64,000 bases of DNA from Candidatus Omnitrophota bacterium. GTDB lineage: Bacteria > CAIJMQ01. The position numbers and the translations under genes are program-made. Positions within the stretch are counted from its first letter, which is position 1. Each line of letters opens with the position of its first letter. The stretch covers positions 70,957 to 134,956 of the forward strand of contig JAHJCU010000005.1 of NCBI GenBank assembly GCA_018812925.1, given 5' to 3'. Below the pieces are notes generated by a model. That model saw nothing but the letters and a program-made list of their open reading frames with translations, did not search any database and had not been told where the DNA came from. Positions 14,119 to 62,992 of this stretch are shown one piece after another.

Positions 14119-14260
14119 GTCATTGCGAGCGACTGAAAAGAGCGCGGCGATCTCATGAGATTGCTTCACTTCGTTCGTCTCTAGAAATCTGCCCTCTGCA
14201 ATTTGAAAAATTGCGAGGACTAAGTCCCTGAAATTCCTGCGAATTTCTCAGGGCAATGAC
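14119..14260 (+). repeat. MITE-like element (family A, full-length copy). It has terminal inverted repeats GTCATTGCGAGCG...GGGCAATGAC and an internal ~66-bp triple-hairpin core.
   Basis: Core GCAATTTGAAAAATTGC-GAGGACTAAGTCCCT-GAAATTCCTGCGAATTTC-TCAGGGC. A homologous full-length copy is at 39241-39393, and core copies are at 35557, 44644, 44800 and 62221. Confidence 0.6.
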
Positions 14261-15350: not shown

Positions 15351-15490
15351 AAATTCGAATTTCGAATATCGAAGCACGAAACAAGCGCGAATGACAGAAA
15401 TTCAAATAACCAAAACAATAAGTTTAGAAAATTAGGACATTAGAATTTTGAATTTGTTTCGGATTTCGTGCTTAAGATTTAGGATTTGCT
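15351..15490. repeat. Palindromic ~140-bp dispersed element (family B, copy 1).
   Basis: Internal inverted repeat CGAAGCACGAAAC...GTTTCG-GTGCTT. About 85% identical over ~100 bp to 20606-20745. Confidence 0.6.
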
Positions 15491-15568
15491 TTAACGGGTC
15501 AGATTGACGAGGAGCACGTATTTTAGTAAATTACTAACTTACAAAAACAAAATCAGGAGATTTAACAA

Positions 15569-17266
15569 ATGTTATCTGATTTGGATATTGCTCAACAAGC
15601 AAAAATGCAGCCTATTAGCGAGATTGCCGACAAGTTAGGAGTGCAACAAGACGAGTTAGAATCTCACGGCAATTATATGGCGAAAATAGACCTTAATATA
15701 CTCAAGCGATTAGAAGATAAACCTAATGGTAAATTTATAACTGTTACAGCTATAACCCCTACACCTTTAGGAGAAGGTAAAACAGTTACTAATCTGGGCT
15801 TAGGGATGGCTCTTTCTAAAATTGGCAAGAAAACCTGCAATGTTATTCGCGAGCCTTCAAAAGGTCCGACTTTTGGGATAAAAGGCGGTGCCTGCGGAGG
15901 AGGATATTCGCAAGTTGTCCCAATGGAGAATATAAATCTTCATTTTACAGGAGACATTCATGCAGTAGATACGGCTCATAATCTATTAAACGCCGCACTT
16001 GATTCCCATCTTGCCCATGGCAACAAGCTCAATATTGATACTAATTTCATAACAATAAACAGATGTGTCGATGTAAGTGACAGGGCTTTAAGAGATATAG
16101 TAATTGGTTTGGGAGGAACAGCTAACGGTTATCCGCGTCAGGCAGGTTATGATATTACCGTAGCAACGGAAACCGCAGCCATACATTCCCTAACTAATTC
16201 ATTAAAGGATTTGAGGCAAAGATTGGGAAGAATGGTGGTGGGATATACTTATGATGGAAAACCCGTAACCGCGGAAGACTTAAAAGTAGCCGGCGCAATG
16301 ACTGTGTTGATGAAAGACGCTATAAAACCAAACTTGGTGCAGACGCTTGAAAATACTCCCGCCATAGTTCACGGATTCCCTTTTGCCAATGTAGCTCACG
16401 GTAATAATTCCGTTATAGCTAATCTTGCAGCGCTTAAGTTGGCTGATTATGTTGTTACTGAAAGCGGGTTTGGCGCTGACTGCGGAGCGGAAAAATTAAT
16501 TGATGTAGTTTGCAGGCAGGCAAATTTGAAACTTGACTGTGTGGTAATTACTTTGTCCATAAGAGCTTTGAAGATGCACGGCGGTGCTTTTGAATTAAAG
16601 CCGGGACAGAAATTAAACAGAGAACTCGTAGCAAAAGATAATATGCCTGCCTTGGAAAAGGGCTGCGAGAATTTAAAAGTGCATATAGAAAATATGCGTA
16701 GTTTCGGTATACCTGTTGTAGTTACTATCAACAAATTTACAGACGATAAACCTCAGGAAACGGATTTTGTTAAGAAGTATGCTGTTGATAACGGCGCAAG
16801 TTTCGCTGTTCCTATAGACCCGTGGGCTAAAGGAGGGGAAGGATGCTTAGAGGCGGCAGAAGCTATAGTCAAAGCCTGCAGTATGCCTAACAATTTCCAT
16901 TTCCTTTATCCAGATGATTTATCAATAGAGGAAAAGATAGAAACTATTGCCAAGAAAATATACCGCGCGGATGGCGTCGATTATTCTCCGCAAGCAAAAA
17001 AGAGAATAAAACTTTATACAAAATTAGGTTACAGCAAGTTACCGATAAATATGGCTAAGACACATCTTTCTATTTCGCATGACCCTAATTTAAAAGGCGC
17101 GCCTAAAGATTTCCGTGTGCCGGTAAGAGATATAAGAGCTTCGATAGGAGCGGGTTTTCTATATCCGTTACTTGGCCAGATGCGGACAATGCCGGGACTT
17201 CCTTCTCGCGCTGCGTATATGGATGTGGATATCGACAGTGAAGGAAAAACATTAGGACTGTTCTAA
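15569..17266 (+). CDS. fhs: Formate--tetrahydrofolate ligase.
   Basis: 'LSDLDIAQQAKMQPISEIA', 'TPTPLGEGKTVT' and a length of 565 aa fit FTHFS. Confidence 0.9.
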   Translation: MLSDLDIAQQAKMQPISEIADKLGVQQDELESHGNYMAKIDLNILKRLEDKPNGKFITVTAITPTPLGEGKTVTNLGLGMALSKIGKKTCNVIREPSKGPTFGIKGGACGGGYSQVVPMENINLHFTGDIHAVDTAHNLLNAALDSHLAHGNKLNIDTNFITINRCVDVSDRALRDIVIGLGGTANGYPRQAGYDITVATETAAIHSLTNSLKDLRQRLGRMVVGYTYDGKPVTAEDLKVAGAMTVLMKDAIKPNLVQTLENTPAIVHGFPFANVAHGNNSVIANLAALKLADYVVTESGFGADCGAEKLIDVVCRQANLKLDCVVITLSIRALKMHGGAFELKPGQKLNRELVAKDNMPALEKGCENLKVHIENMRSFGIPVVVTINKFTDDKPQETDFVKKYAVDNGASFAVPIDPWAKGGEGCLEAAEAIVKACSMPNNFHFLYPDDLSIEEKIETIAKKIYRADGVDYSPQAKKRIKLYTKLGYSKLPINMAKTHLSISHDPNLKGAPKDFRVPVRDIRASIGAGFLYPLLGQMRTMPGLPSRAAYMDVDIDSEGKTLGLF

Positions 17267-17400
17267 GAAAGTAAGAAGTTCAATGAAGAAGACTTTAGAC
17301 ATTAGACTTTGGACTCTGGATTTAAAAATCTTTTTTTGGGTAGTCTTAAGTCTAAGGTCTTTGGTCTATAGTCTATTCGCCAAAGGCGAATATTAAAATT

Positions 17401-20605: not shown

Positions 20606-20745
20606 TAAATTCGAAGCACGAAATTCAAAATACGAAACAATATCGAATGACTAAAACTCAAATGACAAAAACATTAAGTTTGGGAAATTTGGACATTAGG
20701 ATTTTGAATTTGTTTCGTGCTTCGATATTAGGATTTCGGATTTTA
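20606..20745. repeat. Palindromic ~140-bp dispersed element (family B, copy 2).
   Basis: TCGAAGCACGAAA...TTTCGTGCTTCGA inverted termini. It shares 'ATGACA-AAA...AAGTTT-GGAAA-TT-GGACATTAGGATTTTGAATTTGTTTCG' with copy 1. Confidence 0.6.
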
Positions 20746-22801: not shown

Positions 22802-23560
22802 TCATTCAAGTAATTCTTCTCTGTTATCCAACAAAACTGTTATGGGACCTACTGCAGTGTTGGCTTTCATCAAAATGGGTAATTTTCTCTCATCATCGGT
22901 CAACCATATTTTAATGTCACTTATTTTGGTCGAGGAAATACCCAATGTAACATCTTGTGTCGCAACATCAATCACAATAGTATCGAAAGTCTTGCCGTAA
23001 ATTTTCAAAGGTTCTTTTGAAACTGCCTGCACTTTTATGGGATAGATTTTCTTTTGAACTAACACAGGCACAATAACGCTCTCACTCACTTCCCATTTTT
23101 TCAAACGAATTAAGAATAAAGCCGAGAGAGGATTTTGTAAGCCGGGTTCTTTTGCTAAAAGTTCCACAAAATCCGTTTTCTCTTCGTATTTATAATTTTT
23201 CTCCTGCTGTTTTACTTCCCACCATATCGGCAAGATTTCTTTCGAGTCTAGAATTGCAAGCGTGGAATATTCATTCCTAATTCTAAAAAATATATCCGCT
23301 AAACCTACAGTTTTTAATTGGGACTGAAAAAAATAAGATTTTTGTTCCAAATCCGGTAAAGGAATTTTTTCGAAATCTATTGTTGATTTGCCGCCTATTA
23401 TGCCATTCCATCTAAGGGAAAATTCCAATTTTTCAGTGTCTTTTGAAAAAATCTCTTCCCCGCCTGATGCGAAGCTGGCAGGGGATTTTAGTTCAAAGTT
23501 CCCATAAAGAAAAAAGAGCATGCAGACAATAAGGGCAAAAAATATTTTCTTTTTTTTCAT
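22802..23560 (-). CDS. Secreted/lipoprotein-like hypothetical protein.
   Basis: 'MKKKKIFFALIVCMLFFLYGNF' is a signal peptide. No catalytic motif recognised. Confidence 0.4.
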   Translation of the reverse strand: MKKKKIFFALIVCMLFFLYGNFELKSPASFASGGEEIFSKDTEKLEFSLRWNGIIGGKSTIDFEKIPLPDLEQKSYFFQSQLKTVGLADIFFRIRNEYSTLAILDSKEILPIWWEVKQQEKNYKYEEKTDFVELLAKEPGLQNPLSALFLIRLKKWEVSESVIVPVLVQKKIYPIKVQAVSKEPLKIYGKTFDTIVIDVATQDVTLGISSTKISDIKIWLTDDERKLPILMKANTAVGPITVLLDNREELLE

Positions 23561-32395: not shown

Positions 32396-32492
32396 TAGAT
32401 AAACAGATGACAGAAAACAGACGACAGAAGGCAGAAAAAATTCAACTATTATCTGATTTCTGTACTCTGACATCTGACTTCTGAATTTAAAC

Positions 32493-34011: not shown

Positions 34012-35523
34012 ATGGAATTATACAAACTAACTGCTCACGAGCTTAATAATTTGCTTGTAGAGAAAAAAGCTTCTTCCTTTGAGATTACCACGAGTATTTA
34101 TGAACGCATAGAAAAATTAAACAAAAAAATAAATTCCTATATTACACTTACTAAAGAATTAGCTCTACAAAAAGCCGAAAAAGTAGACAAAAAAATCAGT
34201 AAGGGTGAGAAAATAAGCTCTATCTCCGGTATTCCCATCGCAATAAAAGATGTTATCTCGACAAGAGATATCAGAACTACCTGTGGTTCAAAAATACTTT
34301 CGAATTATATCCCTATCTATGACGCAACAGTGATAGAAAAATTCAAAAAAGAGGATGTCATAATTTTGGGTAAAACGAATATGGACGAATTCGCTATGGG
34401 TTCTTCAACCGAAAATTCTGCATACGGGGTCTGCAGGAATCCTTGGAATACTTCTACTATACCGGGCGGTTCTTCAGGCGGTTCGGCGGCTTGCGTGGCG
34501 GCCGATTTTGCAATTATGTCATTGGGGTCGGATACAGGCGGTTCTATTCGTCAGCCTGCAAGTATGTGCGGGGTTGTTGGATTAAAACCCACTTATGGCA
34601 GAGTGTCGCGATATGGACTTGTGGCATTCGCGTCTTCCCTAGACCAGATTGGCACATTTACGAAAGATATAGAGGACTGTGCAATTCTTCTGAATATGAT
34701 AGCAGGACATGACCCGATGGATTCAACTTCTGTTGTAAAAGAAGTCCCAAATTATACTCAGTACCTAAAAAATGACGCCCAAAAAGTAAAGGTCGGAATT
34801 CCTAAGGAATATTTTGTCAAAGGGACGGATAAAGAAGTTGAGAAAGCGATTTTAAACAGTATAGAAACTTTTAAAAAACTGGGAGCCGAAATCGTTGAGG
34901 TTTCATTGCCTCATACAGAATACGCAGTTGCTGCATATTATATTATTGCGCCCGCAGAAGCCAGTTCCAACCTTGCCCGATATGACGGAGTGCACTATGG
35001 GTTCAGGACAGAAAACAGAGGACACCTGCCCGCTTCGCAGCAGGCGGGGAAAACAGAGGACAGAAAAATTAGCAGTATTGTCGATATGTATGAGAAGACG
35101 CGTGATGAAGGTTTCGGCGAAGAGGTAAAAAGAAGAATAATGCTCGGAACATACGCTTTATCTTCAGGTTATTATGAAGCTTATTACCTAAAAGCATTAA
35201 AAGTGAGAACACTGATAAAAAACGATTTTGATAAGGCATTTAAAAAATGTGATGTAATTGTTACGCCAGTTTCTCCGACACCTGCATTTAAAATAGGAGA
35301 AAAAATTTCCGACCCGTTGCAGATGTATCTTTCGGATATATTTACAATTCCCGTAAACTTAGCCGGACTTCCCGCTATTTCTATCCCTTGCGGATTTTCT
35401 AAAGGCGGATTGCCGATAGGTCTTCAAATTATAGGTAAACCTTTTGATGAAGGACAAATTTTACGGACTGCTTATACATTTGAGCAGAATACGGAATACC
35501 ATAATAAGAAACCGAAAATATAA
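34012..35523 (+). CDS. gatA: Glu/Asp-tRNA amidotransferase subunit A.
   Basis: Amidase signature '[33 protein letters not shown]'. Confidence 0.9.
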
Positions 35524-35556
35524 TAATAATTCAAGATTCCAGATTTAAGATTCCCC

Positions 35557-35616
35557 TAGAAATTGCGAAGCAATTTCAGGGACTGAGTCCCGGAAATCCT
35601 CCGGATTTCTCGGGGC
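35557..35616 (+). repeat. Family A triple-hairpin core copy.
   Basis: GAAATTGCGAAGCAATTTC-AGGGACTGAGTCCC-GGAAATCCTCCGGATTTC-TCGGGGC. Confidence 0.6.
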
Positions 35617-35639
35617 AAAATTCGCAAGAATCTTTAATC

Positions 35640-37118
35640 TTGAATTTTCAATCTTTAATGGAGATTATGACATACGAACCTGTAATCGGTCTTGAAATAC
35701 ACGCTGAACTTGCTACCGAAACGAAACTATTTTGCGGATGCTCAACAAAATTTGGTTCTCCGCCGAACTCGCAAGTTTGCCCCGTGTGTATGGGGCTTCC
35801 AGGTGTGCTTCCCGTAGTAAACGAAAAAGCGGTTGAATATATGATTAGGACTGCTTTAGCGCTCAATTGTATAATAACACACCTAACAAAATTCGACAGG
35901 AAGAATTATTATTATCCCGACCTTCCCAAAAATTATCAGATTTCACAACAATATCTGCCTTTTGCCAAAGACGGATTTCTTGAAATTAAACTTGGCGATA
36001 AAATTAAACGAATCGGCGTGGACAATATTCATCTTGAAGAAGATGCGGGTAAGAATATCCATCTTGAAAATGGGCAAGCATCTTTGGTGGACTTAAACCG
36101 CACGGGTATACCTTTAATAGAAATCGTAACGAAACCGGATATGAGGAGCCTGGAAGAAGTTGAAGTGTTTATGAATAACTTAAGAGACATATTACTTTAT
36201 ATCGGGATTTCTGACTGTAAAATGGAAGAGGGTTCTTTAAGATTTGAAGCAAATATATCAGTAAGAGAAAAAGGCGAAGATATTTTGTCGCCAAGAGTTG
36301 AAATAAAAAATCTGAATTCTTTCAAAATTGTTCTTGCGGCTATCAAATACGAAGTAGAAAGACAAAAAGAAACACTTGAAAAAGGGGAAAAGGTTTCTCA
36401 AGAAACCAGATTATGGGATGAAGAAGGGCAAAAAACACACCCGATGCGCAGTAAAGAAGAAGCGCACGATTACCGATATTTCCCCGAACCGGACCTTCCC
36501 CCGCTTTTTATTTCGGATGAAGAAATAGAAAGAATAAAAAAGGAACTGCCTGAACTTCCAAATGCGCGCAAAGAAAGATTCGCAGTTGAATATGGCTTGA
36601 CAGAATACGATTCAAACATACTCATATCAAACAAAGAAACGGCAGACTTTTTCGAAGAATGCTTAAAAGAATTCAATCAGTCCCGCTCCGACAACATCGG
36701 AGCAAAGGAAATTGCCAACTGGCTTATAGGACCTGTTGCGGGATATTTAAACGAGCATAACATTACTATTACTGAAAGCAAACTCACTTCTGAACATCTC
36801 ATTTCACTGCTTACACTTGTTAAAGAAGGGAAAATCAACCAAAATACTGCCAAAAATATACTCACGAAGATTTTTGAAAAAGGCAAACATCCGCAGGAGA
36901 TAGTTAAAGAGAACGGTCTTGCTCAAGTAACAGACGAGGAAGAGCTCTCCCAAGCAGTAGATAAAGTCCTTAAAGAAAACCAACAAGTAATAGACGATTT
37001 CAAGAAGGGTAAAACAAATGCATTCGGTTTCTTAGTCGGGCAGGTAATGAAATCAACCAAAGGCAAAGCAAATCCAAAAATAGTTAATGAATTACTTAAC
37101 CAAAAACTGAAGAAGTAA
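35640..37118 (+). CDS. gatB: Glu/Asp-tRNA amidotransferase subunit B.
   Basis: 'YEPVIGLEIHAEL', 'CPVCMGLPGVLP' and a C-terminal YqeY-like tail. The true start is possibly the Met at 35661. Confidence 0.9.
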   Translation: MNFQSLMEIMTYEPVIGLEIHAELATETKLFCGCSTKFGSPPNSQVCPVCMGLPGVLPVVNEKAVEYMIRTALALNCIITHLTKFDRKNYYYPDLPKNYQISQQYLPFAKDGFLEIKLGDKIKRIGVDNIHLEEDAGKNIHLENGQASLVDLNRTGIPLIEIVTKPDMRSLEEVEVFMNNLRDILLYIGISDCKMEEGSLRFEANISVREKGEDILSPRVEIKNLNSFKIVLAAIKYEVERQKETLEKGEKVSQETRLWDEEGQKTHPMRSKEEAHDYRYFPEPDLPPLFISDEEIERIKKELPELPNARKERFAVEYGLTEYDSNILISNKETADFFEECLKEFNQSRSDNIGAKEIANWLIGPVAGYLNEHNITITESKLTSEHLISLLTLVKEGKINQNTAKNILTKIFEKGKHPQEIVKENGLAQVTDEEELSQAVDKVLKENQQVIDDFKKGKTNAFGFLVGQVMKSTKGKANPKIVNELLNQKLKK

Positions 37119-39169: not shown

Positions 39170-39240
39170 TTAGAAAAGAAAGGTAGGGAAAATGGGACGG
39201 TTCTTTTAAAATAGAGTTGTCCCCTTTTCTATTAGTTCTT

Positions 39241-39393
39241 GTCATTGAGAGAGAGCGAAAGCAACCGAAGTAATCTAAAAAGCGAGATTGCCTGCCCGCA
39301 AAGATTTGGCAGGCGGGCTTTGCCTTTGGCTCGCCCCTAGGAATCTGGAAGATTTCAGGGACTTTAGTCCTGGAAATTCGTACGAATTTCTCA
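39241..39393 (+). repeat. MITE-like element (family A, full-length copy 2).
   Basis: GTCATTGAGAGAGAGCGAAAGC ... GATTTC-AGGGACTTTAGTCCT-GGAAATTCGTACGAATTTC-TCAGGGCAATGAC. It contains an inner CTGCCCGC/GCGGGC hairpin. Confidence 0.6.
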
Positions 39394-39607
39394 GGGCAAT
39401 GACACTTATTTTATTTGTATTAAACATTGGACATTTCATTAAGAACTAGAAATTGGTAATTAGAAATTTAAGTAGAGCAGAACCAAAAGTTCATAAATAG
39501 GCAACTACAAAGCAAGACAGTTTAGAGAGAGCCGCTTTTCTTTTCATATTACATTTCCGCAATTGTAAATCCTATTAAAATTGTTATATAATTCAATTTC
39601 TAAAGCC

Positions 39608-44328: not shown

Positions 44329-45261
44329 ATGTTCCATAAGCAAATTGTAATAATTGACAATAAGGAAATTGCCGCCGGTTATTTTGTTATGGAACTTATA
44401 TCTTCCCAAATAGCCCAAAATTCATTCCCCGGACAATTCCTCCATATAAAATGTTCTTCCGATTCCCAACCCTTACTACGCAGGCCTTTAAGTATACACA
44501 GAGTAATAGACAAAAAAACAATAGAAATCTTATACAAAGTGGTAGGCAAGGGCACTCATTATCTTTCCGAAAGAAAAAAGGGGGGGGAAATAGATTGTTT
44601 GGGTCCCTTGGGAAACGGATTTGAACTACCGAAAACCGAAAACCCCCTTAGAAATTCTATGGAATTTCAAGGACCAAAGTCCCGGAAATCTTTCAGATTT
44701 CTCGGGGGGAAACCGAAAACCGAAATTTTACTTGTTGCTGGCGGAATAGGGATAGCGCCTTTATTTTTTCTTATAGAAAGGATAACGAAAACCGATAACC
44801 TCCTTAGAAATTCTATGGAATTTCAAGGACCAAAGTCCCGGAAATCTTTCAGATTTCTCGGGGGGAAACCGATAACTGTATTTATTGGAGCAAAGACAAA
44901 AGATGAAATTTTATGCGCTAACGAACTTAAAAGTTTGGGAGTAGAATTACACATCGCCACTGAAGACGGTAGTATGGGATACAAAGGATTAGTAAGCGAC
45001 CTCTTGAAAAATAATCTGTCATCTGTCATCTGTCATCTGTCATCTGTTGTTTACGCCTGCGGACCGAAAGCAATGTTGAAAGAAATCGCTCTTATATCTA
45101 AAAAACACCAAATTCCCTGTCAGGTATCTTTCGAACAATTTATGGGATGTGGGATAGGTATATGCAATGCTTGTGTTATTAAAACCAAACATGGATATAG
45201 GCGGGTTTGTAAAGACGGTCCCGTCTTTAAGTCGGAAGAAATTGATTGGAATAAAATATAA
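44329..45261 (+). CDS. pyrK: Dihydroorotate dehydrogenase electron-transfer subunit. It carries three in-frame repeat insertions.
   Basis: FAD/NAD-binding 'RRPLSIHRV' and 'LLVAGGIGIAPL', plus a C-terminal 2Fe-2S 'CGIGICNAC...C'. At 310 aa it is ~50-60 aa longer than typical PyrK, owing to the duplicated 'LRNSMEFQGPKSRKSFRFLGGKP' peptide and 'SSVICHLSSV'. Confidence 0.8.
   Translation: MFHKQIVIIDNKEIAAGYFVMELISSQIAQNSFPGQFLHIKCSSDSQPLLRRPLSIHRVIDKKTIEILYKVVGKGTHYLSERKKGGEIDCLGPLGNGFELPKTENPLRNSMEFQGPKSRKSFRFLGGKPKTEILLVAGGIGIAPLFFLIERITKTDNLLRNSMEFQGPKSRKSFRFLGGKPITVFIGAKTKDEILCANELKSLGVELHIATEDGSMGYKGLVSDLLKNNLSSVICHLSSVVYACGPKAMLKEIALISKKHQIPCQVSFEQFMGCGIGICNACVIKTKHGYRRVCKDGPVFKSEEIDWNKI
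44644..44709 (+). repeat. Family A triple-hairpin core, in-frame within pyrK (copy 1).
   Basis: CCTTAGAAATTCTATGGAATTTC-AAGGACCAAAGTCCCGG-AAATCTTTCAGATTTC-TCGGGGGG, flanked by direct repeats GAAAACCGAAAACC / AAACCGAAAACC. Confidence 0.7.
44800..44865 (+). repeat. Family A triple-hairpin core, in-frame within pyrK (copy 2). It is 100% identical to copy 1 over 66 bp.
   Basis: Flanked by GAAAACCGATAACC / AAACCGATAAC direct repeats. Confidence 0.7.
45016..45043 (+). repeat. (CTGTCAT)x4 perfect tandem heptamer inside the pyrK coding region.
   Basis: ctgtcatctgtcatctgtcatctgtcat read directly. 28 bp is not a multiple of 3, but the frame is preserved downstream. Confidence 0.8.
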
Positions 45262-49847: not shown

Positions 49848-50369
49848 TTATCTGCTTTCTGTCTTCCCCGCCTGCCAGTCTTTGGCGGGCAGGTGTTCTC
49901 TGTCGACAAGGCTTACAATAGAAATGCAGGCAATACCTTCGCCGTTACCTAAAGCGCCTAAGCCTTCGGGCGAAGTGGCTTTTATGTTGATTTTGTTTCC
50001 GGGAATTTTAATGATTGAGTTGAGGCTTTCTTTTATTTGTTCTCTGTAAGGGGAGACTTTGGGCTCTTGAACTATAATTGTCACATCTAAATTATTCACC
50101 GCAAGATTTTTCTTTTTCATTATTTCCAATACTTTCTCCAACAGTTTTAAAGAAAAGATATCTTTATATTCGGGGTCAGTGTCGGGAAAGTGTTCTCCTA
50201 TATCTTTCTCGCCCATAGCGCCTAAAATGGCATCGCAGATGCAGTGAGTAACCACATCGGCGTCGGAATGCCCCAACAATCCTTTTGAATTCGGTATTTG
50301 AATACCGCCGAGGATAAGTTTGCGTCCTTTTTGCAACTTATGAATATCGTAACCTAGCCCTATTAACAT
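49848..50369 (-). CDS. ispF: 2-C-methyl-D-erythritol 2,4-cyclodiphosphate synthase.
   Basis: 'IGLGYDIHKL', 'GGIQIPNSKGLLGHSDADV' and 'GDAILGA'. The ORF caller extends it to 50393. Confidence 0.85.
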   Translation of the reverse strand: MLIGLGYDIHKLQKGRKLILGGIQIPNSKGLLGHSDADVVTHCICDAILGAMGEKDIGEHFPDTDPEYKDIFSLKLLEKVLEIMKKKNLAVNNLDVTIIVQEPKVSPYREQIKESLNSIIKIPGNKINIKATSPEGLGALGNGEGIACISIVSLVDREHLPAKDWQAGKTESR

Positions 50370-50561
50370 AGTCATAATAAAATTAAATATCAAAAATCAA
50401 ATATTAAATATACATATAGAAATTTAAAAAGATAAAGCAAGCCAAATAAAATTTTATTAGTTGTCTTTTTTAATATTAAGCATCCCGTATCAAGAATCTT
50501 GTTTTTTATTTTGAATTTTAATATGTCATTTTGCATTTTACATTTTGATTTTTGCATTTGT

Positions 50562-51368: not shown

Positions 51369-51993
51369 TTTCCATTCTTTCCTTTACTTTCATAAGACGA
51401 ATAAAATTTTCTCTTTCTATTTCGGATAACCTGAAAGAAATATAAGAAATAGTTTCTTTTATATCGGGTATCATTTTATATTCCAAAGCGTTAACTTTCC
51501 TTCGCGTTTTTTTTATTTCTTCACCGATTAATAGAATCGCCTTTTCTACTGAAGCCAATTCCAGCATTTTAGGAGTTATGTCCTCTAAGATTCTCAAACA
51601 CGAATCAAGTTCTCCCGTAGTGTTGCTTACACCGTATTGCATTAAATTCAATTTAGAGTGAGCCCCTTTTTTGATACGCAAAAAAGGCAGTCGCAGATTA
51701 AATATCGCTTGTTCTTCTTTTTCAATTTCTAAAATATCGGTGCGATTAATTAGAGCTTCACCTATATCGTTTAATTGGACTTGTCCTCTTGCCAATATAT
51801 AGAAAGAGAGTAGCTTAAGCCAATTTTCTTCAACTTCATCTCTTAATGTATCTCCATTTTTTGCAAAACTCAAGAATTTGCCGACAAGTTCATCTAATTT
51901 ATCTCTAAGAAGTTTGCAACCGCGTCGAGCCAAATCCAATCTTTTGCGCAGCAGCAAAAGCTCCATTCTTGTGGCGGAAACATTAAGTTTCAT
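51361..51993 (-). CDS. V/A-type ATP synthase subunit D homolog (orphan).
   Basis: 'MKLNVSATRMELLLLRKRLDLARRGCKLLRDKLDEL' and C-terminal 'IGEEIKKTRRKVNALEYKMIPDIKETISYI' match the V-ATPase D-subunit N- and C-terminal consensus. No other V-ATPase subunits are adjacent. Confidence 0.7.
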   Translation of the reverse strand: MKLNVSATRMELLLLRKRLDLARRGCKLLRDKLDELVGKFLSFAKNGDTLRDEVEENWLKLLSFYILARGQVQLNDIGEALINRTDILEIEKEEQAIFNLRLPFLRIKKGAHSKLNLMQYGVSNTTGELDSCLRILEDITPKMLELASVEKAILLIGEEIKKTRRKVNALEYKMIPDIKETISYISFRLSEIERENFIRLMKVKERMENG

Positions 51994-52059
51994 ATTTTTA
52001 TTTGAGATTCCAGATTTAAAATTAAAAATTCGAGAATCTTTAATCTTCAATATAGTATT

Positions 52060-53385
52060 TTATTTTTCAAAAACATTAACAAAAAATCCCGTAGGAACTT
52101 TTGGATAAAAATATGTGGCTTTACCGGGCATCCTTTCTTGCCGATTTGCTACGAGTTTTACTTCTTCCACCTTTGTAGGATTTAGGAGAAATGCTATCTG
52201 ATAAGTGCCGTTTTTAACTAAATCTATGGCCTTATATCTATCAACTTCATAGGCAAGACGCAAAGTATCTTGAAGTTCCTTTTCTTCATATCCCAAGATG
52301 TGGGAAAATATTAAAGAATGTAATACTGACACGTCTAAATGCTTCCACGCAGGAGAATGCTGCTGCATTTTGCCTAATAGTTTCTTTTCATTTTTGGATA
52401 CGAAGAGCAATGTTTTGATTGCGCCGTTATCGTTATGTACTACGCCGAAAGCGTGTCGGCTATGCCCTTCTTCTCGGATAAGTTTAAAGCTTTTATCTAT
52501 ATCGTTTAGGGGAAGTTCTTTTATAAAGAAAAAGTCACAAGCTTTATTGTTAAGTTTTTTCCAATCATCTAGGCTAAAATCTTTTAATAGTCGATGGGCA
52601 GGAAAAATCTTTAAACTATCATCCTCCATAGGAGAAATATAGGCCAAAATCCATCTATTGTAATCCTTCTTATTTTCTTTCCAAAATTTCAGAGCCGTTT
52701 CATATCTATGGTGACCGTCTGCGATGTATAATGTTTTTTGCTTTATTATTTCCTTAATTTTATCATTGGTTTGAAGATTGGAAATTCTCCATAGGGTATG
52801 TTTTTTGCCCAAAGGATGAGGGAATCCTTTGGGAATATATTTAGAGTTTTTTCTTTCCAACGGAACAAAATCGGCAAAAGTAGACTCTTCTTTGTTTTGT
52901 TCAAGCGATTTCATTACTTCATTGTTTTCATCCGAATAGATTAAGAATATCGGCGAAAGGTTGGTGCGTGTGGCGTTTAAAAGCTTGAATCTATCTTCTT
53001 TTGGAGAAGAAAGTGTATTTTCATGCGGCAGAATTTTCCCGTCCGCGAAATCCTCAAGTCGTACAAGAGCAAAAAATCCTTTTCTTAATAAATTCTCATT
53101 ATTAGCCAGAAAATGCTGGTGATACAGGTAGAAAGAAGATTTATCTCCTTTCATAAAAATCCCATCTCTTAACCATTCATTTAGCATAGAAGCAGAGTGT
53201 TGGTATTTATCCTGATTTGTGGTTTCTTTTGGAAGAATGAGGTTGATAATATTATGCTTTCTTGCATAATATTCCTCTCTTTCCTCAATAGGAATAACAT
53301 CGTACGGAGGCGCAATAACTTGCGAAAGACTTTTTATCTTATTGGGATTATAAAAATATCCGTTAAAAGGTTTTATTTCAGCCAT
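52060..53385 (-). CDS. Conserved hypothetical protein (possibly DUF1015-like).
   Basis: 441 aa. 'MAEIKPFNGYFYNPNKIKSLSQVIAPPYDVI' is my recollection of the DUF1015 N-terminus, with low certainty. Confidence 0.4.
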   Translation of the reverse strand: MAEIKPFNGYFYNPNKIKSLSQVIAPPYDVIPIEEREEYYARKHNIINLILPKETTNQDKYQHSASMLNEWLRDGIFMKGDKSSFYLYHQHFLANNENLLRKGFFALVRLEDFADGKILPHENTLSSPKEDRFKLLNATRTNLSPIFLIYSDENNEVMKSLEQNKEESTFADFVPLERKNSKYIPKGFPHPLGKKHTLWRISNLQTNDKIKEIIKQKTLYIADGHHRYETALKFWKENKKDYNRWILAYISPMEDDSLKIFPAHRLLKDFSLDDWKKLNNKACDFFFIKELPLNDIDKSFKLIREEGHSRHAFGVVHNDNGAIKTLLFVSKNEKKLLGKMQQHSPAWKHLDVSVLHSLIFSHILGYEEKELQDTLRLAYEVDRYKAIDLVKNGTYQIAFLLNPTKVEEVKLVANRQERMPGKATYFYPKVPTGFFVNVFEK

Positions 53386-54720: not shown

Positions 54721-56166
54721 TCAGCCCTTTATCACACCCAAAGGTTTCATTTTTGCTACTTTTTGCGATATCCCTGCCTTATGAACTATATCCACAACCA
54801 TATTTATATCTTTATACGCTTCAGACATTTCTTCTGCAAGTGTGTTTTTGTTCCTAGCCCTTACTGTAATGCCTTTTTCTTCCATTTCCCTAAAAATCGA
54901 CCTGCCTTCGGCAATCTTTATAGCCTTATGCCTGCTCATAGTTCTTCCAGCTCCGTGACAAGTACTGCCCCATGTTTCTTCAAAGGCTTTTTGTGTACCG
55001 GCAAGTAAATAAGACGCTCTTCCCATATCACCCGGAATTATAACAGGTTGGCCTATACTTTTATATTTTAATGGGATATCAGGATGATTCGGCGGAAAAG
55101 CTCTTGTTGCGCCTTTGCGATGGACGCAAAGAAGAGTTTCTTTCCCATTGACCTTATGTTTTTCTAACTTGGCAATATTATGCGCTACATCGTATATCAG
55201 TTCCATACCCAAATCCTGCCACTTCTTGCCGAAAAATTTTCCAAAGGTTTCTCTTACAAGATGCATAAGTATCTGCCTATTGCACCACGCATAATTAGCC
55301 GCAGATGCCATAGCTGAAAAATAATCTTTTCCCTCGGGTGAATCTATGGGCACGCTTACGAGTTGTCTGTCGGGGAGTTTAATTCCGTATTTAGATACTA
55401 CTTTTTGCATAATTCTCAAACTATCGTCGCATATCTGATGACCCAGTCCTCTTGAGCCGGAATGGATCATAATCGTAATTTGGTCTTTTTCTATCCCGAA
55501 AACTTTTGCTTTTTGTTCATCATATATTTCATCAATCTTTTGTATTTCCAGAAAATGATTGCCTGAACCTAACGTGCCGCTTTGATTTTTGCCTCTTTCA
55601 TAAGCCCTGGGGCTCACTTTATCCGGATTAGCGCTCTGCAAACATCCACCTTCCTCTGTATTTATTATGTCATCTTCTACGCCATAACCTTGTTTTACTG
55701 CCCATTTTGAACCATCTTTTAGAAGTTCTTTTTCCTGTTGAGGCGAAACTTTTATTTTGCCGCCTATGCCTACGCCGCAGGGAATATTAGTAAAAAGAGC
55801 ATCCATTAAGGCAGGAATTTTATTTTTTATATCTTCTGTTTTTAGATTGGTCTTGAGTAAACGAATCCCACAGTTAATGTCGTAGCCTACACCGCCGGGC
55901 GAAATAACTCCGCCTTGTTCTGGGTCTGTTGCCGCAACACCGCCGATAGCAAAACCATAACCCCAATGTGCATCAGGCATAGCGAACGAATGCTTAACGA
56001 TTCCCGGAAGACATGCTACATTTGCAACTTGTTTCATTACTTGTTCTTTTTCAAGAGACTGCATCATTTTTTCATTGGAATAGATAATTCCCGAAACGCG
56101 CATTCCTTCGACATATCCTTTGGGTATTTCCCATCTATAATCGTCAATTTTCTTAAGATTTGCCAT
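54721..56166 (-). CDS. rtcB: RNA 3'-phosphate/RNA-splicing ligase RtcB.
   Basis: 'MPDAHWGYGFAIGGV', 'NHFLEIQ', 'HSGSRGLGHQ' and 'HNIA' metal/GTP motifs. 481 aa. Confidence 0.9.
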   Translation of the reverse strand: MANLKKIDDYRWEIPKGYVEGMRVSGIIYSNEKMMQSLEKEQVMKQVANVACLPGIVKHSFAMPDAHWGYGFAIGGVAATDPEQGGVISPGGVGYDINCGIRLLKTNLKTEDIKNKIPALMDALFTNIPCGVGIGGKIKVSPQQEKELLKDGSKWAVKQGYGVEDDIINTEEGGCLQSANPDKVSPRAYERGKNQSGTLGSGNHFLEIQKIDEIYDEQKAKVFGIEKDQITIMIHSGSRGLGHQICDDSLRIMQKVVSKYGIKLPDRQLVSVPIDSPEGKDYFSAMASAANYAWCNRQILMHLVRETFGKFFGKKWQDLGMELIYDVAHNIAKLEKHKVNGKETLLCVHRKGATRAFPPNHPDIPLKYKSIGQPVIIPGDMGRASYLLAGTQKAFEETWGSTCHGAGRTMSRHKAIKIAEGRSIFREMEEKGITVRARNKNTLAEEMSEAYKDINMVVDIVHKAGISQKVAKMKPLGVIKG

Positions 56167-62193: not shown

Positions 62194-62220
62194 AAAAATT
62201 ACTTTTATTAAAGATTACCC

Positions 62221-62280
62221 CTAGAAACGCATAGCATTTCAGGGACTAAGTCCTCGGAATCTTGCTAAGATTCCAGAGGG
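62221..62280 (+). repeat. Family A triple-hairpin core copy.
   Basis: CATTTC-AGGGACTAAGTCCT-CGGAATCTTGCTAAGATTC-CAGAGGG, followed by AAGATTC/GAATCTT low-complexity repeats. Confidence 0.55.
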
Positions 62281-62338
62281 AAAATTTAAGATTCGAGATT
62301 TTAAGAATCTTTAATCTTCAATCTTGAATTTTGAATGT

Positions 62339-62992
62339 TTATTTATCCCATCCGTGTTTTCCTATTAAGGGCACAAATGTGCATCCACAAATTGTTTTTG
62401 TTATTAATTCTCCTTTTATTTTTTCCCCGAGGATTAAATCTTGAGAAAAGGGCCCCCCTATTGGAATGACGATTCGGCCGTTTTCAGAGAGTTGTTTAAT
62501 CAAAGGTTCTGGAATTTTGGGCGAACCTGCCGTTACTATAATGCCGTTATAAGGAGCATATTCGCTCCAACCTTCACTTCCGTCGCCCACTTTCACTTTT
62601 ATATTCTGGTATCCCAATTCTTTAAACATTTCTTCAGCTTTTAAAGCAAGAGATTCTATTTTTTCCACAGTATAAACTTCTTTTGCGGTTTTGCTTAAAA
62701 CGGCCGTCTGATATCCCGAACCTGTTCCAATCTCCAAAACTTTTTCGTGTTCTTTAAGCCGAAGCAATTCTGTCATTAAAGCTACCATATAGGGTTGAGA
62801 AATAGTTTGTCCTTCTCCTATGGGAAGAGGAAAATCTTCATATGCGCACGACCTTTGTTGTTCTGAAACGAAAAGATGTCTTGGTATTTGCCCCATAACT
62901 TCCAGGAGTTTTTCGTCTTTTATTCCCCTTGTTTTTAGCTGAACTTCCACCATATTTTCTCGTAATATTTTGTAATCTTCTTTATTAAACAT
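62339..62992 (-). CDS. pcm: Protein-L-isoaspartate O-methyltransferase.
   Basis: SAM motif 'VLEIGTGSGYQTAVL' and 'RIVIPIG'. The ORF caller extends it to 63016. Confidence 0.8.
   Translation of the reverse strand: MFNKEDYKILRENMVEVQLKTRGIKDEKLLEVMGQIPRHLFVSEQQRSCAYEDFPLPIGEGQTISQPYMVALMTELLRLKEHEKVLEIGTGSGYQTAVLSKTAKEVYTVEKIESLALKAEEMFKELGYQNIKVKVGDGSEGWSEYAPYNGIIVTAGSPKIPEPLIKQLSENGRIVIPIGGPFSQDLILGEKIKGELITKTICGCTFVPLIGKHGWDK

What the first reader, a model, noticed from the sequence alone, without database searches (positions are those of the whole stretch)
14119..14260. A dispersed MITE/REP-like family (family A): six same-orientation copies of a ~66-bp triple-hairpin core, two of them full-length with GTCATTG...CAATGAC terminal inverted repeats next to tRNA-Leu genes.
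Copies are at 14119-14260 (12 nt after tRNA-Leu-GAG), 35557-35616, 39241-39393 (215 nt before tRNA-Leu-TAA), 44644-44709, 44800-44865 and 62221-62280. The core is three consecutive hairpins, with a central GGGACTNAGTCCC-type stem, ending TC(A)GGGC. All six are on the same strand regardless of the neighbouring gene's strand. This suggests a function as RNA (for example a terminator or stability element) or a replication-direction bias, rather than random insertion. Two of the copies flank tRNA-Leu genes.
Basis: seen in the sequence. Interest (0 to 1): 0.55.

Follow-up and report, generated by a model that had tools for sequence, protein, structure and literature searches.

The report
Mobile double-hairpin repeat invading genes
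A 63-base piece of selfish DNA made of two mirrored hairpins is scattered through this uncultivated Omnitrophota genome, its relatives and at least one phage, and it also sits in frame inside housekeeping genes, much as the palindromic elements of Rickettsia do.

Summary
The repeat is real. A covariance model finds exactly six copies in the window (60-89 bits) and nothing else above 17 bits.

- **Structure.** Covariation in 42 distinct copies supports two bulged hairpins joined by a conserved ACTnAGT linker, not three hairpins.
- **Orientation.** The core is dyad-symmetric and every copy scores on both strands, so "all six in the same orientation" is not robust. Three copies are clearly +, one is undecided and two lean -.
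- **"Full-length" copies.** These two are cores nested inside an unrelated palindromic element with GTCATTGCGAG...CTCGCAATGAC ends.
Two copies lie in frame inside pyrK. The closest PyrK homologue lacks both inserts, and AlphaFold2 models them as disordered loops.

The same core also sits in frame in miaB, cobT, hypF and pseudopilin genes of related genomes. It is nested in other copies and lies on a phage contig. It occurs in at least 27 assemblies labelled Omnitrophota, Ratteibacteria, Planctomycetota, Auribacterota, Desantisbacteria and others.

A paralogous empty site in the window shows a clean insertion with no fixed target duplication. The best reading is a REPIN/RPE-like non-autonomous mobile element. 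I did not identify the enzyme that moves it, and IS200-like Y1 transposase genes in relatives are not linked to it. It is a new member of a known kind, of moderate interest.

The parts
14119..14260 (+). Composite element: a family C palindromic element (GTCATTGCGAG...CAATGAC ends) carrying a family A core just inside its right end.
   Evidence: Sequence. Family C stands alone, without a core, in L126, L049, L107 and L027.
14192..14253 (.). Family A core, a divergent copy. It reads best on the - strand, where it matches the subfamily whose second hairpin is CCTCGCAAT..ATTGCAGAGG.
   Evidence: R1 gives 66.2 bits on - and 60.0 bits on +. Its - strand reading matches L027 6963-7025.
35518..35662 (.). 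Host hairpin made of inverted heptamer arrays (ATTCAAG/AATCTTT units), with the family A core at its apex, in the gatA-gatB spacer.
   Evidence: Alignment A6 against the empty paralogue.
35553..35615 (+). Family A core, the canonical copy.
   Evidence: R1 gives 88.6 bits on + and 65.1 bits on -. Folding z-score -5.0.
39241..39403 (+). Composite element: family C left end, a nested family B hairpin, a family A core and the CAATGAC right end. It lies 204 nt upstream of tRNA-Leu-TAA.
39291..39317 (.). Family B hairpin CCTGCCCGC-aaagatttg-GCAGGCGGG, nested in the composite.
   Evidence: Inverted-repeat pairs I7, I12 and I18.
39334..39396 (.). Family A core, orientation undecided.
   Evidence: R1 gives 67.9 bits on + and 67.2 bits on -.
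44329..45261 (+). pyrK (electron-transfer subunit of dihydroorotate dehydrogenase B), 310 aa, carrying two in-frame cores and one in-frame heptamer array.
44645..44707 (+). Family A core inside pyrK at site 1, within a CCGAAAA heptamer array. It is translated as ...PLRNSMEFQGPKSRKSFRFLGG...
   Evidence: R1 gives 75.9 bits. Translation. Relatives have heptamer arrays here without a core (A5). pLDDT is below 50 at residues 104-127.
44801..44863 (+). Family A core inside pyrK at site 2, flanked by the 11-nt direct repeat AAACCGATAAC.
   Evidence: R1 gives 73.1 bits. Alignment A4. pLDDT is below 50 at residues 158-178.
62218..62280 (.). Family A core of the subfamily whose second hairpin is CCTCGGAAT..ATTCCAGAGG, lying between two - strand genes.
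   Evidence: R1 gives 70.8 bits on - and 66.3 bits on +. Sequence.
51990..52066 (.). Paralogous empty site: the same inverted heptamer-array hairpin as 35518-35662 but without the core.
   Evidence: Alignment A6 shows conserved flanks and a clean gap of about 65 nt where the core sits in the filled copy.

Best explanation
Family A is a 63-65 bp non-autonomous mobile palindromic element. It consists of two hairpins in inverted orientation, each with a conserved foot (CCY...RGG), a one-base bulge, a conserved GAAAT/ATTTC stem segment and a free tip, joined by an ACTnAGT linker. In architecture it is a REPIN-like doublet and in behaviour it resembles the Rickettsia palindromic elements.

It multiplies within genomes and moves between them. 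In proteins one stop-free frame is translated as a disordered peptide of about 21-30 aa.

**Shown:** the structure, the copy set, in-frame gene invasion, presence/absence differences, nesting, spread across genomes and carriage by a phage.

**Inferred:** movement uses single-stranded hairpin DNA recognised by a trans-acting enzyme through the conserved hairpin feet and linker. An HUH/Y1 (IS200-like) transposase is the obvious candidate, but I found no link to one.
For: - **Copy set.** Six copies in the window score 60-89 bits and nothing else scores above 17 bits.
- **Structure.** In 42 distinct copies, 98.6% of cells are paired, 12 pairs show changes on both sides, and the covariation score is 0.321 against 0.130 for shuffles (0 of 500 shuffles reach it). 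Sliding the 3' partners by 1-3 columns drops pairing to 21-62%. Wobble pairs are as rare as mismatches, so both DNA strands fold equally well.
- **Presence/absence.** The closest PyrK homologue, P0001 (84% identity), lacks both inserts, and its 20.8 kb syntenic locus has no core at all. P0002 carries the site 2 insert while its near-twin P0016 does not.
- **Empty site.** A paralogous empty site in the window shows a clean insertion of about 65 nt.
- **Recent movement.** One subfamily is identical over 28 nt in 13 copies on 12 metagenome stretches. Its contexts include pyrK, miaB, hypF and pseudopilin genes, besides intergenic sites.
- **More in-frame sites.** In-frame copies also occur in cobT and in the miaB gene of two further genomes.
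- **Nesting.** Nested and tandem copies are seen in L027, L062, L075 and L092.
- **Phage carriage.** A phage contig encoding terminase, portal and major head protein carries an 86-bit copy.
- **Tolerated inserts.** AlphaFold2 predicts the PyrK fold with confidence except for the two inserts, which fall below pLDDT 50.
- **Not an artefact.** The identical insert-bearing PyrK is found on 5 contigs and under several NCBI accessions.
- **No known RNA family.** Rfam gives no match at gathering or relaxed thresholds.
Against: - **No mobilising gene found.** No gene family recurs next to copies.
- **No link to Y1 transposases.** Y1_Tnp genes exist in two close relatives, but they are bracketed by other inverted repeats. 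No Y1_Tnp lies in the window or in about 60 core-bearing loci. No core lies within 2.5 kb of 13 further Y1_Tnp loci.
- **No fixed target-site duplication.** Flanks are direct repeats in about 20% of copies, inverted repeats in about 16%, and neither in the rest.
- **Selection for structure not excluded.** Near-perfect pairing in diverged copies could also reflect selection for a structural function.
- **Sampling bias.** My sample of relatives was collected with a pattern that fixes much of the central region.
- **Taxon labels.** The names attached to metagenome-assembled genomes may be imprecise.
Confidence: 0.8

Rival explanations
1. The element exists mainly because it works in RNA, as a transcription attenuator, a barrier to RNases or an mRNA stabiliser placed between genes of an operon. 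This is what the first reader proposed.
For: - 39 of 43 intergenic copies lie in short spacers between co-directional genes.
- The element folds strongly, with z-scores of -2.8 to -5.0.
- The dyad symmetry means either orientation would give the same RNA shape, so the 22:17 orientation split does not exclude this reading.
- REPs are reported to be located mainly downstream of coding regions and plausibly to act as RNA elements (PMC3733652).
Against: - Copies sit in frame inside pyrK, miaB, cobT and hypF, where a terminator would be lethal.
- No run of T follows the hairpins.
- Close relatives lack the copies at the same sites.
- Wobble pairs are no more common than mismatches, which is not what RNA-only selection produces.
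- Rfam gives no match.
Confidence: 0.1
2. It is a classical MITE, a deletion derivative of a DDE-type insertion sequence, moved through its terminal inverted repeats and leaving a fixed-length target-site duplication.
For: - The core ends are inverted repeats (CCCYTAGAAAT versus ATTTCTCRGGG).
- Two copies carry GTCATTG...CAATGAC ends.
- Some copies are flanked by 7-15 nt direct repeats.
Against: - There is no consistent duplication. Only 14 of 68 copies have flanks that match directly at 6 or more of 7 positions, and these lie in pre-existing heptamer arrays.
- The GTCATTG ends belong to a separate element.
- No transposase gene with these ends was seen in about 1 Mb of related loci.
- At 63 bp the element is almost entirely hairpin.
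Confidence: 0.07
3. Copies spread without a dedicated enzyme. Template switching or gene conversion between heptamer arrays and palindromes during replication copies the hairpin from one array into another.
For: - Cores and family B hairpins sit inside tandem heptamer arrays with 10-15 nt direct repeats on both sides.
- The loop of the second hairpin is inverted (TTTC to GAAA) between two otherwise near-identical copies, a mark of intra-palindrome strand switching.
- Subfamily-specific flanks (ACCGAAA-type heptamers) tend to travel with the TTCTATGGAA..CCAAAG subfamily.
Against: - Many copies have neither heptamer nor palindromic flanks.
- Near-identical cores occur in different genomes and in a phage.
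- The sharply conserved hairpin feet and linker, set against free hairpin tips, look like a protein recognition surface.
Confidence: 0.1
4. The inserted peptide is itself the selected product, a functional protein module that is added to host proteins.
For: All six coding contexts of the TTCTATGGAA..CCAAAG subfamily use the same frame, although 3 of the 6 frames are open.
Against: - The host proteins are unrelated: PyrK, MiaB, CobT, HypF and pseudopilins.
- The peptide is predicted to be disordered.
- Most copies are intergenic.
- Other subfamilies encode different peptides.
- The frame bias is explained more simply by purging of stop-containing or hydrophobic readings.
Confidence: 0.03

Closest known systems
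REPINs / REP dimers (BIME-like), thought to be mobilised by RAYT tyrosine transposases
   Same: - Both consist of two short imperfect palindromes in inverted orientation separated by a short spacer.
- Both are high-copy and lie mostly in short spacers between co-directional genes.
- Both are occasionally intragenic, encoding 20-30 aa (PMC3337134 abstract; PMC3733652).
- Hairpins are kept intact by compensatory change.
   Different: - There is no GTAG or CGTC tag at the foot of the hairpin. Here the unpaired flank is nAGT.
- The Y1_Tnp genes found in relatives are not flanked by this element.
- The family spans several phylum-level labels and a phage, whereas REPIN families are described as lineage-bound.
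Rickettsia palindromic elements (RPEs)
   Same: - Both are palindromic repeats inserted in frame into unrelated housekeeping genes.
- The inserts appear to be tolerated in the folded protein.
- The mobilising enzyme is unknown in both cases (RPE description: PMC10969869, PMC3733652).
   Different: - RPE-1-type elements are about 150 bp and confined to Rickettsia. This core is 63 bp with no sequence similarity to them.
- This family occurs in free-living or episymbiotic uncultivated phyla.
- It is embedded in heptamer arrays.
Bacterial MITEs (Correia/NEMIS, Nezha, ERIC, RUP)
   Same: All are small non-coding repeats with inverted ends. All are sometimes co-transcribed or fused in frame to ORFs (PMC10969869).
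   Different: MITEs are defined by TIRs matching a parent insertion sequence and by a fixed TSD. Neither was found here.
Cyanobacterial small dispersed repeats and STRR heptamer repeats (Elhai et al. 2008 and Mazel et al. 1990; cited from my own knowledge, papers not held)
   Same: Both involve very small hairpin elements nested in one another and in tandem heptamer repeats, in a genome rich in period-7 arrays.
   Different: The phyla and sequences differ. I could not check the published definitions, so this remains a lead only.
IS200/IS605 family and its miniature derivatives (PATEs)
   Same: Both rely on hairpins with bulges as the recognised feature and leave no target duplication. IS200-like Y1_Tnp genes are present in close relatives.
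   Different: In IS200/IS605 the two end hairpins lie on the same strand in the same sense, next to a fixed target tetra- or pentanucleotide (my own knowledge). Here the hairpins are mirror images, and I found no fixed flanking motif.

Membership tests
REPIN / REP doublet | Two imperfect palindromes in inverted orientation with a short spacer | tested here: met
   The second hairpin is the mirror of the first: a bulged A in the 5' arm against a bulged T in the 3' arm. The spacer is ACTnAGT.
REPIN / REP doublet | Unpaired GTAG (or CGTC) tag at one end of each palindrome (PMC3733652) | tested here: not met
   The feet are flanked by nAGT/ACTn on the inner side and by variable bases on the outer side.
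REPIN / REP doublet | A single-copy RAYT gene flanked by REPs of the same family | tested here: not met
   The Y1_Tnp genes in L126 and L128 are bracketed by GGGTCAAATCTTGACATT and GGGACGGTTCTATTTT inverted repeats. 13 further Y1_Tnp loci have no core within 2.5 kb. No Y1_Tnp occurs in the core-bearing loci. Whole genomes were not searched.
REPIN / REP doublet | High copy number, mostly extragenic | tested here: met
   There are 6 copies in 64 kb. 51 of 62 sampled copies are intergenic.
MITE | Terminal inverted repeats | tested here: met
   CCCYTAGAAAT matches the reverse complement of ATTTCTCRGGG at 10 of 11 positions.
MITE | Target-site duplication of fixed length | tested here: not met
   In the flank test on 68 copies, 14 had direct matches and 11 inverted matches at 6 or more of 7 positions, and the rest had neither. 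The empty/filled pair shows no duplication beyond the pre-existing heptamer units.
MITE | A parent insertion sequence with the same ends | tested here: inconclusive
   None was seen in about 1 Mb of loci, but complete genomes were not searched.
Rickettsia palindromic elements | Palindromic repeat inserted in frame in functional genes | tested here: met
   Found in pyrK (twice), miaB, cobT and hypF. Pfam domains are intact around the inserts.
Rickettsia palindromic elements | Sequence membership in RPE-1 to RPE-10, genus Rickettsia | not tested
The host is an Omnitrophota MAG, so membership is implausible.
Intrinsic terminator | GC-rich hairpin followed by a run of T on the transcribed strand | tested here: not met
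   Downstream flanks are A-rich or variable. Some copies lie inside ORFs.
Any Rfam family | Score at or above the gathering threshold | tested here: not met
   Only 4 tRNAs pass in the window. A relaxed search of 35400-35750 gives only chance-level hits far below threshold.
IS200/IS605-derived miniature element | Two subterminal hairpins of the same sense plus a fixed target tetra- or pentanucleotide at the left end | tested here: not met
   The hairpins are mirror images and there is no fixed left-flank motif.

The most novel reading that the evidence does not exclude
The double hairpin (families A and B) is the substrate of a still unrecognised single-strand DNA insertion/excision system shared by Omnitrophota, Planctomycetota and their phages. 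On this reading, the abundant locus-specific heptamer arrays of these genomes, including those that lengthen loops of essential proteins, are the footprints left by repeated insertion and excision. If so, the element would be a general engine of loop evolution in proteins of these small-celled bacteria.
Probability: 0.12. Interest if true: 0.75.

Novelty: new member of a known kind. Interest (0 to 1): 0.5.

Why it matters
- **A second case of gene-invading selfish DNA.** It shows that the "selfish DNA inside protein-coding genes" phenomenon known from Rickettsia also operates, apparently recently, in a quite different and poorly known part of the bacterial tree. One core is found across several phylum-level labels and in a phage.
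- **A route to the mechanism.** How such very small palindromic elements move is unknown for RPEs. Near-identical copies of this family lie at many different sites in public metagenomes, so insertion and excision junctions could be read directly from population data, and candidate enzymes could be found by co-occurrence.
- **A practical point for annotation.** These elements and the heptamer arrays lengthen proteins (PyrK, GatA, MiaB, CobT, HypF) and can mislead gene calling and homology-based annotation of Omnitrophota MAGs.

Tried and rejected
- **Central stem / cloverleaf fold.** Rejected at its discriminating pairs. A caveat remains: the inner 5 bp were fixed by my search pattern. Among pattern-independent copies, one lineage shows GGGAT..ATCCC and one copy breaks the stem.
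- **Rfam.** Nothing at gathering or relaxed thresholds.
- **Orientation against transcription and GC skew.** No significant bias.
- **Search for a partner gene.**
  - Clustering ORFs within 2.5 kb of copies gave only housekeeping and pilus genes.
  - tblastn with two Y1_Tnp proteins gave nothing in core-bearing loci.
  - The covariance model on 13 Y1_Tnp loci gave nothing.
- **Fixed target-site duplication.** Not found.
- **Literature.** Full-text searches for the core and for the GTCATTGCGAG string returned only unrelated papers. The Elhai 2008 paper is not held. A search on Omnitrophota plus repeat terms found no description of this family.
- **tRNA-Leu association.** Dropped. It applies to 2 of 6 copies, both of them passengers in a family C element.
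- **DNA-uptake-sequence idea.** Considered and set aside. Uptake sequences are lineage-specific, whereas this core is shared across phylum-level labels.

Full report

Yes. Reading the six places shows one shared core of about 63 nt, and the repeat finder groups them (families D2, D5, D7, D12). An orientation-specific core pattern hits five of them, against none in 100 dinucleotide-preserving shuffles. A covariance model (R1) built from 42 distinct copies was run without filters over both strands of the window. It returns exactly these six loci at 60-89 bits (E 1e-14 to 1e-21), and the next best hit scores 17 bits.

One coordinate is wrong: the second composite ends at 39403, not 39393, so it lies 204 nt from tRNA-Leu-TAA.

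The window comes from a MAG labelled Candidatus Omnitrophota. Its insert-bearing PyrK occurs identically on five contigs and under several NCBI accessions, so the repeat is not an assembly artefact.

**2. Structure**

Each copy folds well below shuffled controls, with z-scores of -2.8 to -5.0. The minimum-energy fold is two long hairpins, not three.

On alignment A3 (42 distinct copies) the two-hairpin model pairs 98.6% of cells. Twelve pairs show changes on both sides, and the covariation score is 0.321 against 0.130 for shuffles (0 of 500 shuffles reach it). Sliding the 3' partners by 1-3 columns drops pairing to 21-62%.

The pairs that tell the models apart are clear:
- Columns 4-29 give CG 26 / UA 16 with none unpaired.
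- Columns 42-69 give CG 22 / UA 18 / AU 1 with one unpaired.
- In the model with an outer stem and a central GGGACTnAGTCCC stem, the corresponding pairs leave 18 and 16 of 42 sequences unpaired.

Each hairpin has a conserved foot (CCY/RGG), a single bulged base, a conserved GAAAT/ATTTC segment and a freely co-varying tip. The bulge is an A in the 5' arm of the first hairpin and a T in the 3' arm of the second, so the second hairpin is the mirror image of the first. Wobble pairs are as rare as mismatches, so both DNA strands fold equally well.

Caveat: my search pattern fixed much of the centre, so its invariance in A3 is partly circular. In pattern-independent copies, one lineage has GGGAT..ATCCC and one copy breaks the central palindrome. 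A transient central stem cannot be excluded.

**3. Orientation**

Because of the dyad symmetry, every copy scores on both strands.

| Copy | + minus - (bits) |
|---|---|
| 35553 | +23.5 |
| 44645 | +12.2 |
| 44801 | +11.6 |
| 39334 | +0.7 |
| 62218 | -4.5 |
| 14192 | -6.2 |

Copy 14192 read on the - strand matches a subfamily seen in L027. The two pyrK copies are 156 nt apart and share 101 nt at 93% identity (family D3), so they are not independent.

Across related genomes, intergenic copies between co-directional genes are 22 co-oriented and 17 anti-oriented with transcription. GC skew on the element strand is positive in 41 copies and negative in 26 (p = 0.09). The strand argument for an RNA function or a replication bias therefore has no support. 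Equally, a symmetric element cannot be excluded from an orientation-independent role on these grounds.

**4. Copies inside genes**

Copies 44645 and 44801 lie inside ORF 44329-45261, in frame and without stops. The ORF is pyrK (Pfam). In alignment A2 the closest homologue, P0001 (262 aa, 84% identity), lacks both inserts. P0002 has the same insert at site 2 only, and its near-twin P0016 lacks it.

AlphaFold2 predicts the fold with confidence (mean pLDDT 79, about 90 in most blocks of ten residues). The two inserts, residues 104-127 and 158-178, fall below 50 and lie between core secondary-structure elements.

The same core sits in frame in other genes of related genomes:
- miaB, at the same loop in L044, L080, L134 and L140
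- cobT (L040)
- hypF (L138)
- upstream of the N-terminal methylation motif in the ORFs of type II secretion pseudopilin-like genes (L137, L139)
- within the ORF of a T2SS-K-like gene (L131/L133)

Three of the six frames of the core are open. All six coding contexts of one subfamily use the frame that reads PLRNSMEFQGPKSRKSFRFLGG.

**5. Evidence that it moves**

- Presence/absence differences exist between close relatives (section 4). The 20.8 kb syntenic locus of the closest relative has no core, where the window has three.
- Window 51990-52066 is a paralogue of the host hairpin 35518-35662. Its flanks are conserved and it lacks exactly the core, which marks a clean insertion at the hairpin apex.
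- A 28-nt subfamily-specific string occurs in 13 copies on 12 metagenome stretches, in several different coding and intergenic contexts.
- Copies are nested in the loop of the second hairpin of other copies, and tandem clusters occur (L027, L062, L075, L092).
- Four IMG/VR contigs carry true copies. One of them encodes terminase, portal, protease and major head protein, and another encodes an integrase.

**6. The "full-length" copies and the surroundings**

GTCATTGCGAG...GCAATCTC-loop-GAGATTGC...CTCGCAATGAC is a separate palindromic element of about 75-95 nt (family C). It stands alone, without any core, in L126 (three copies), L049, L107 and L027. In the window's two composites the family A core lies just inside its right end. 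The second composite also holds a nested third element, family B (CCTGCCCGC..GCAGGCGGG).

Family B also sits in frame in gatA. There it is flanked by a 14-nt direct repeat and adds 17 residues relative to a solved GatA structure.

The window holds more than 20 period-7 tandem arrays, with units that differ from locus to locus. They often occur as inverted pairs that form long hairpins. Site 1 of pyrK is a heptamer array in all relatives, but the units differ: AAGACCA, CAGAAAA or CCGAAAA.

**7. Distribution**

About half are full cores. They come from at least 27 assemblies labelled:
- Omnitrophota/Omnitrophica
- Ratteibacteria
- Planctomycetia, Phycisphaerales and Sedimentisphaerales
- Auribacterota
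- Desantisbacteria
- Nitrospirota
- Syntrophaceae

The remaining stretches are chance matches in coding sequence. MAG labels and binning may be imperfect, so the breadth should be taken as provisional.

**8. Mechanism: what is shown and what is inferred**

Shown:
- A structured, dyad-symmetric DNA element that is copied to new sites within and between genomes.
- Copies persist in permissive places.
- It is translated when it lands in frame.

Inferred:
- The sharply conserved hairpin feet, bulges and linker, set against free hairpin tips, look like a protein recognition surface.
- The absence of a fixed target duplication points away from DDE transposases and towards a hairpin-recognising single-strand mechanism. 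In the flank test, 14 of 68 copies had direct matches, 11 of 68 had inverted matches, and the rest had neither.
- IS200-like Y1_Tnp genes lie in two close relatives, near where the window has composite 39241-39403.

The link to Y1_Tnp fails every test I could run:
- Those genes are bracketed by unrelated 16-18 nt inverted repeats. This resembles the "TIRtrons" of PMC3733652.
- No Y1_Tnp occurs in the window or in about 60 core-bearing loci.
- Thirteen further Y1_Tnp loci have no core within 2.5 kb.
- No other gene family recurs next to copies.

The mobilising enzyme is therefore unknown.

**9. Comparison with what is known**

- In architecture the element is a REPIN-like doublet (PMC3337134). 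It lacks the GTAG/CGTC tag and the RAYT association that define those families (PMC3733652).
- In behaviour it is closest to the Rickettsia palindromic elements, which insert in frame in metabolic genes (PMC10969869). It differs from them in size and host.
- It has inverted ends like a MITE, but no fixed duplication and no parent insertion sequence were found.
- From my own knowledge, it also recalls the very small nested repeats and heptamer arrays of heterocystous cyanobacteria. I could not read that paper.
- Rfam has nothing for it. Full-text searches for its sequence strings found nothing relevant.

**10. Verdict**

It is a new member of a known kind, the small palindromic mobile elements. 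It stands out for its breadth, its carriage by a phage and its apparent recent activity. Interest is moderate (0.5).

Noticed in passing
window 35025-35051 (also 23456-23482, 39291-39317, 49867-49900): A second small hairpin family (family B, CCTGCCCGC-loop-GCAGGCGGG). The 35025 copy lies in frame inside gatA, is flanked by the 14-nt direct repeat GAAAACAGAGGACA, and corresponds to a 17-residue insert ([17 protein letters not shown]) relative to solved GatA 3h0l. Another copy is nested next to a family A core in the pyrK gene of L128.
   Followed up: partly
window 14119-14191 and 39241-39290; L126 578, 1678, 10889; L049, L107, L027: A third palindromic element (family C, GTCATTGCGAG...GCAATCTC-loop-GAGATTGC...CTCGCAATGAC, about 75-95 nt). 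It occurs on its own in relatives and hosts the two composites in the window.
   Followed up: partly
window-wide, e.g. 17290-17376, 32401-32484, 35529-35659, 45014-45047, 50374-50559, 62305-62341: There are more than 20 tandem arrays of period 7 in 64 kb. Their units differ from locus to locus, and they often form inverted pairs that make long intergenic hairpins. Some lie inside coding sequence: ATCTGTC x4.9 in pyrK encodes LSSVICHLSSV. Where they come from is unexplained.
   Followed up: partly
window 39194-39224; L128 9139-9168 and 9913-9929; L126 2760-2785 and 3770-3790: IS200-like Y1_Tnp genes sit at or near this position in two close relatives, each bracketed by its own 16-18 nt inverted repeats. 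The window has no such gene there, only a solitary hairpin (GGGACGGTTCT..AGAGTTGTCCCC) that matches the repeats bracketing the L128 gene.
   Followed up: partly
L128 10437-10499 versus window 44801-44863: The two copies at pyrK site 2 are nearly identical, except that the loop of the second hairpin is inverted (TTTC versus GAAA). This fits strand switching within the palindrome.
   Followed up: no
L126 19172-20789 versus window 54721-56166: RtcB of the closest relative is called as 1001 aa with an intein-splicing domain. The window's RtcB is 481 aa without one. In L126 the tRNA-Val region also holds a GIY-YIG gene and what look like duplicated tRNA 3' ends.
   Followed up: no
window 15351-15487 and 20607-20743: A 137-nt direct repeat at 79% identity lies in two intergenic regions. 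A weak (17-bit) model hit at 15520-15579 is nearby. I did not study it.
   Followed up: no
L122 1073-1135 (IMGVR_UViG_3300009311_000038) and L119 2515-2577: Family A cores lie on a phage contig (terminase, portal, protease, major head protein) and on an integrase-bearing contig. These could be vehicles for spread between lineages.
   Followed up: partly
L092 3885-4178: A cluster of three to four family A copies in alternating orientation lies within 300 nt of one intergenic region.
   Followed up: no
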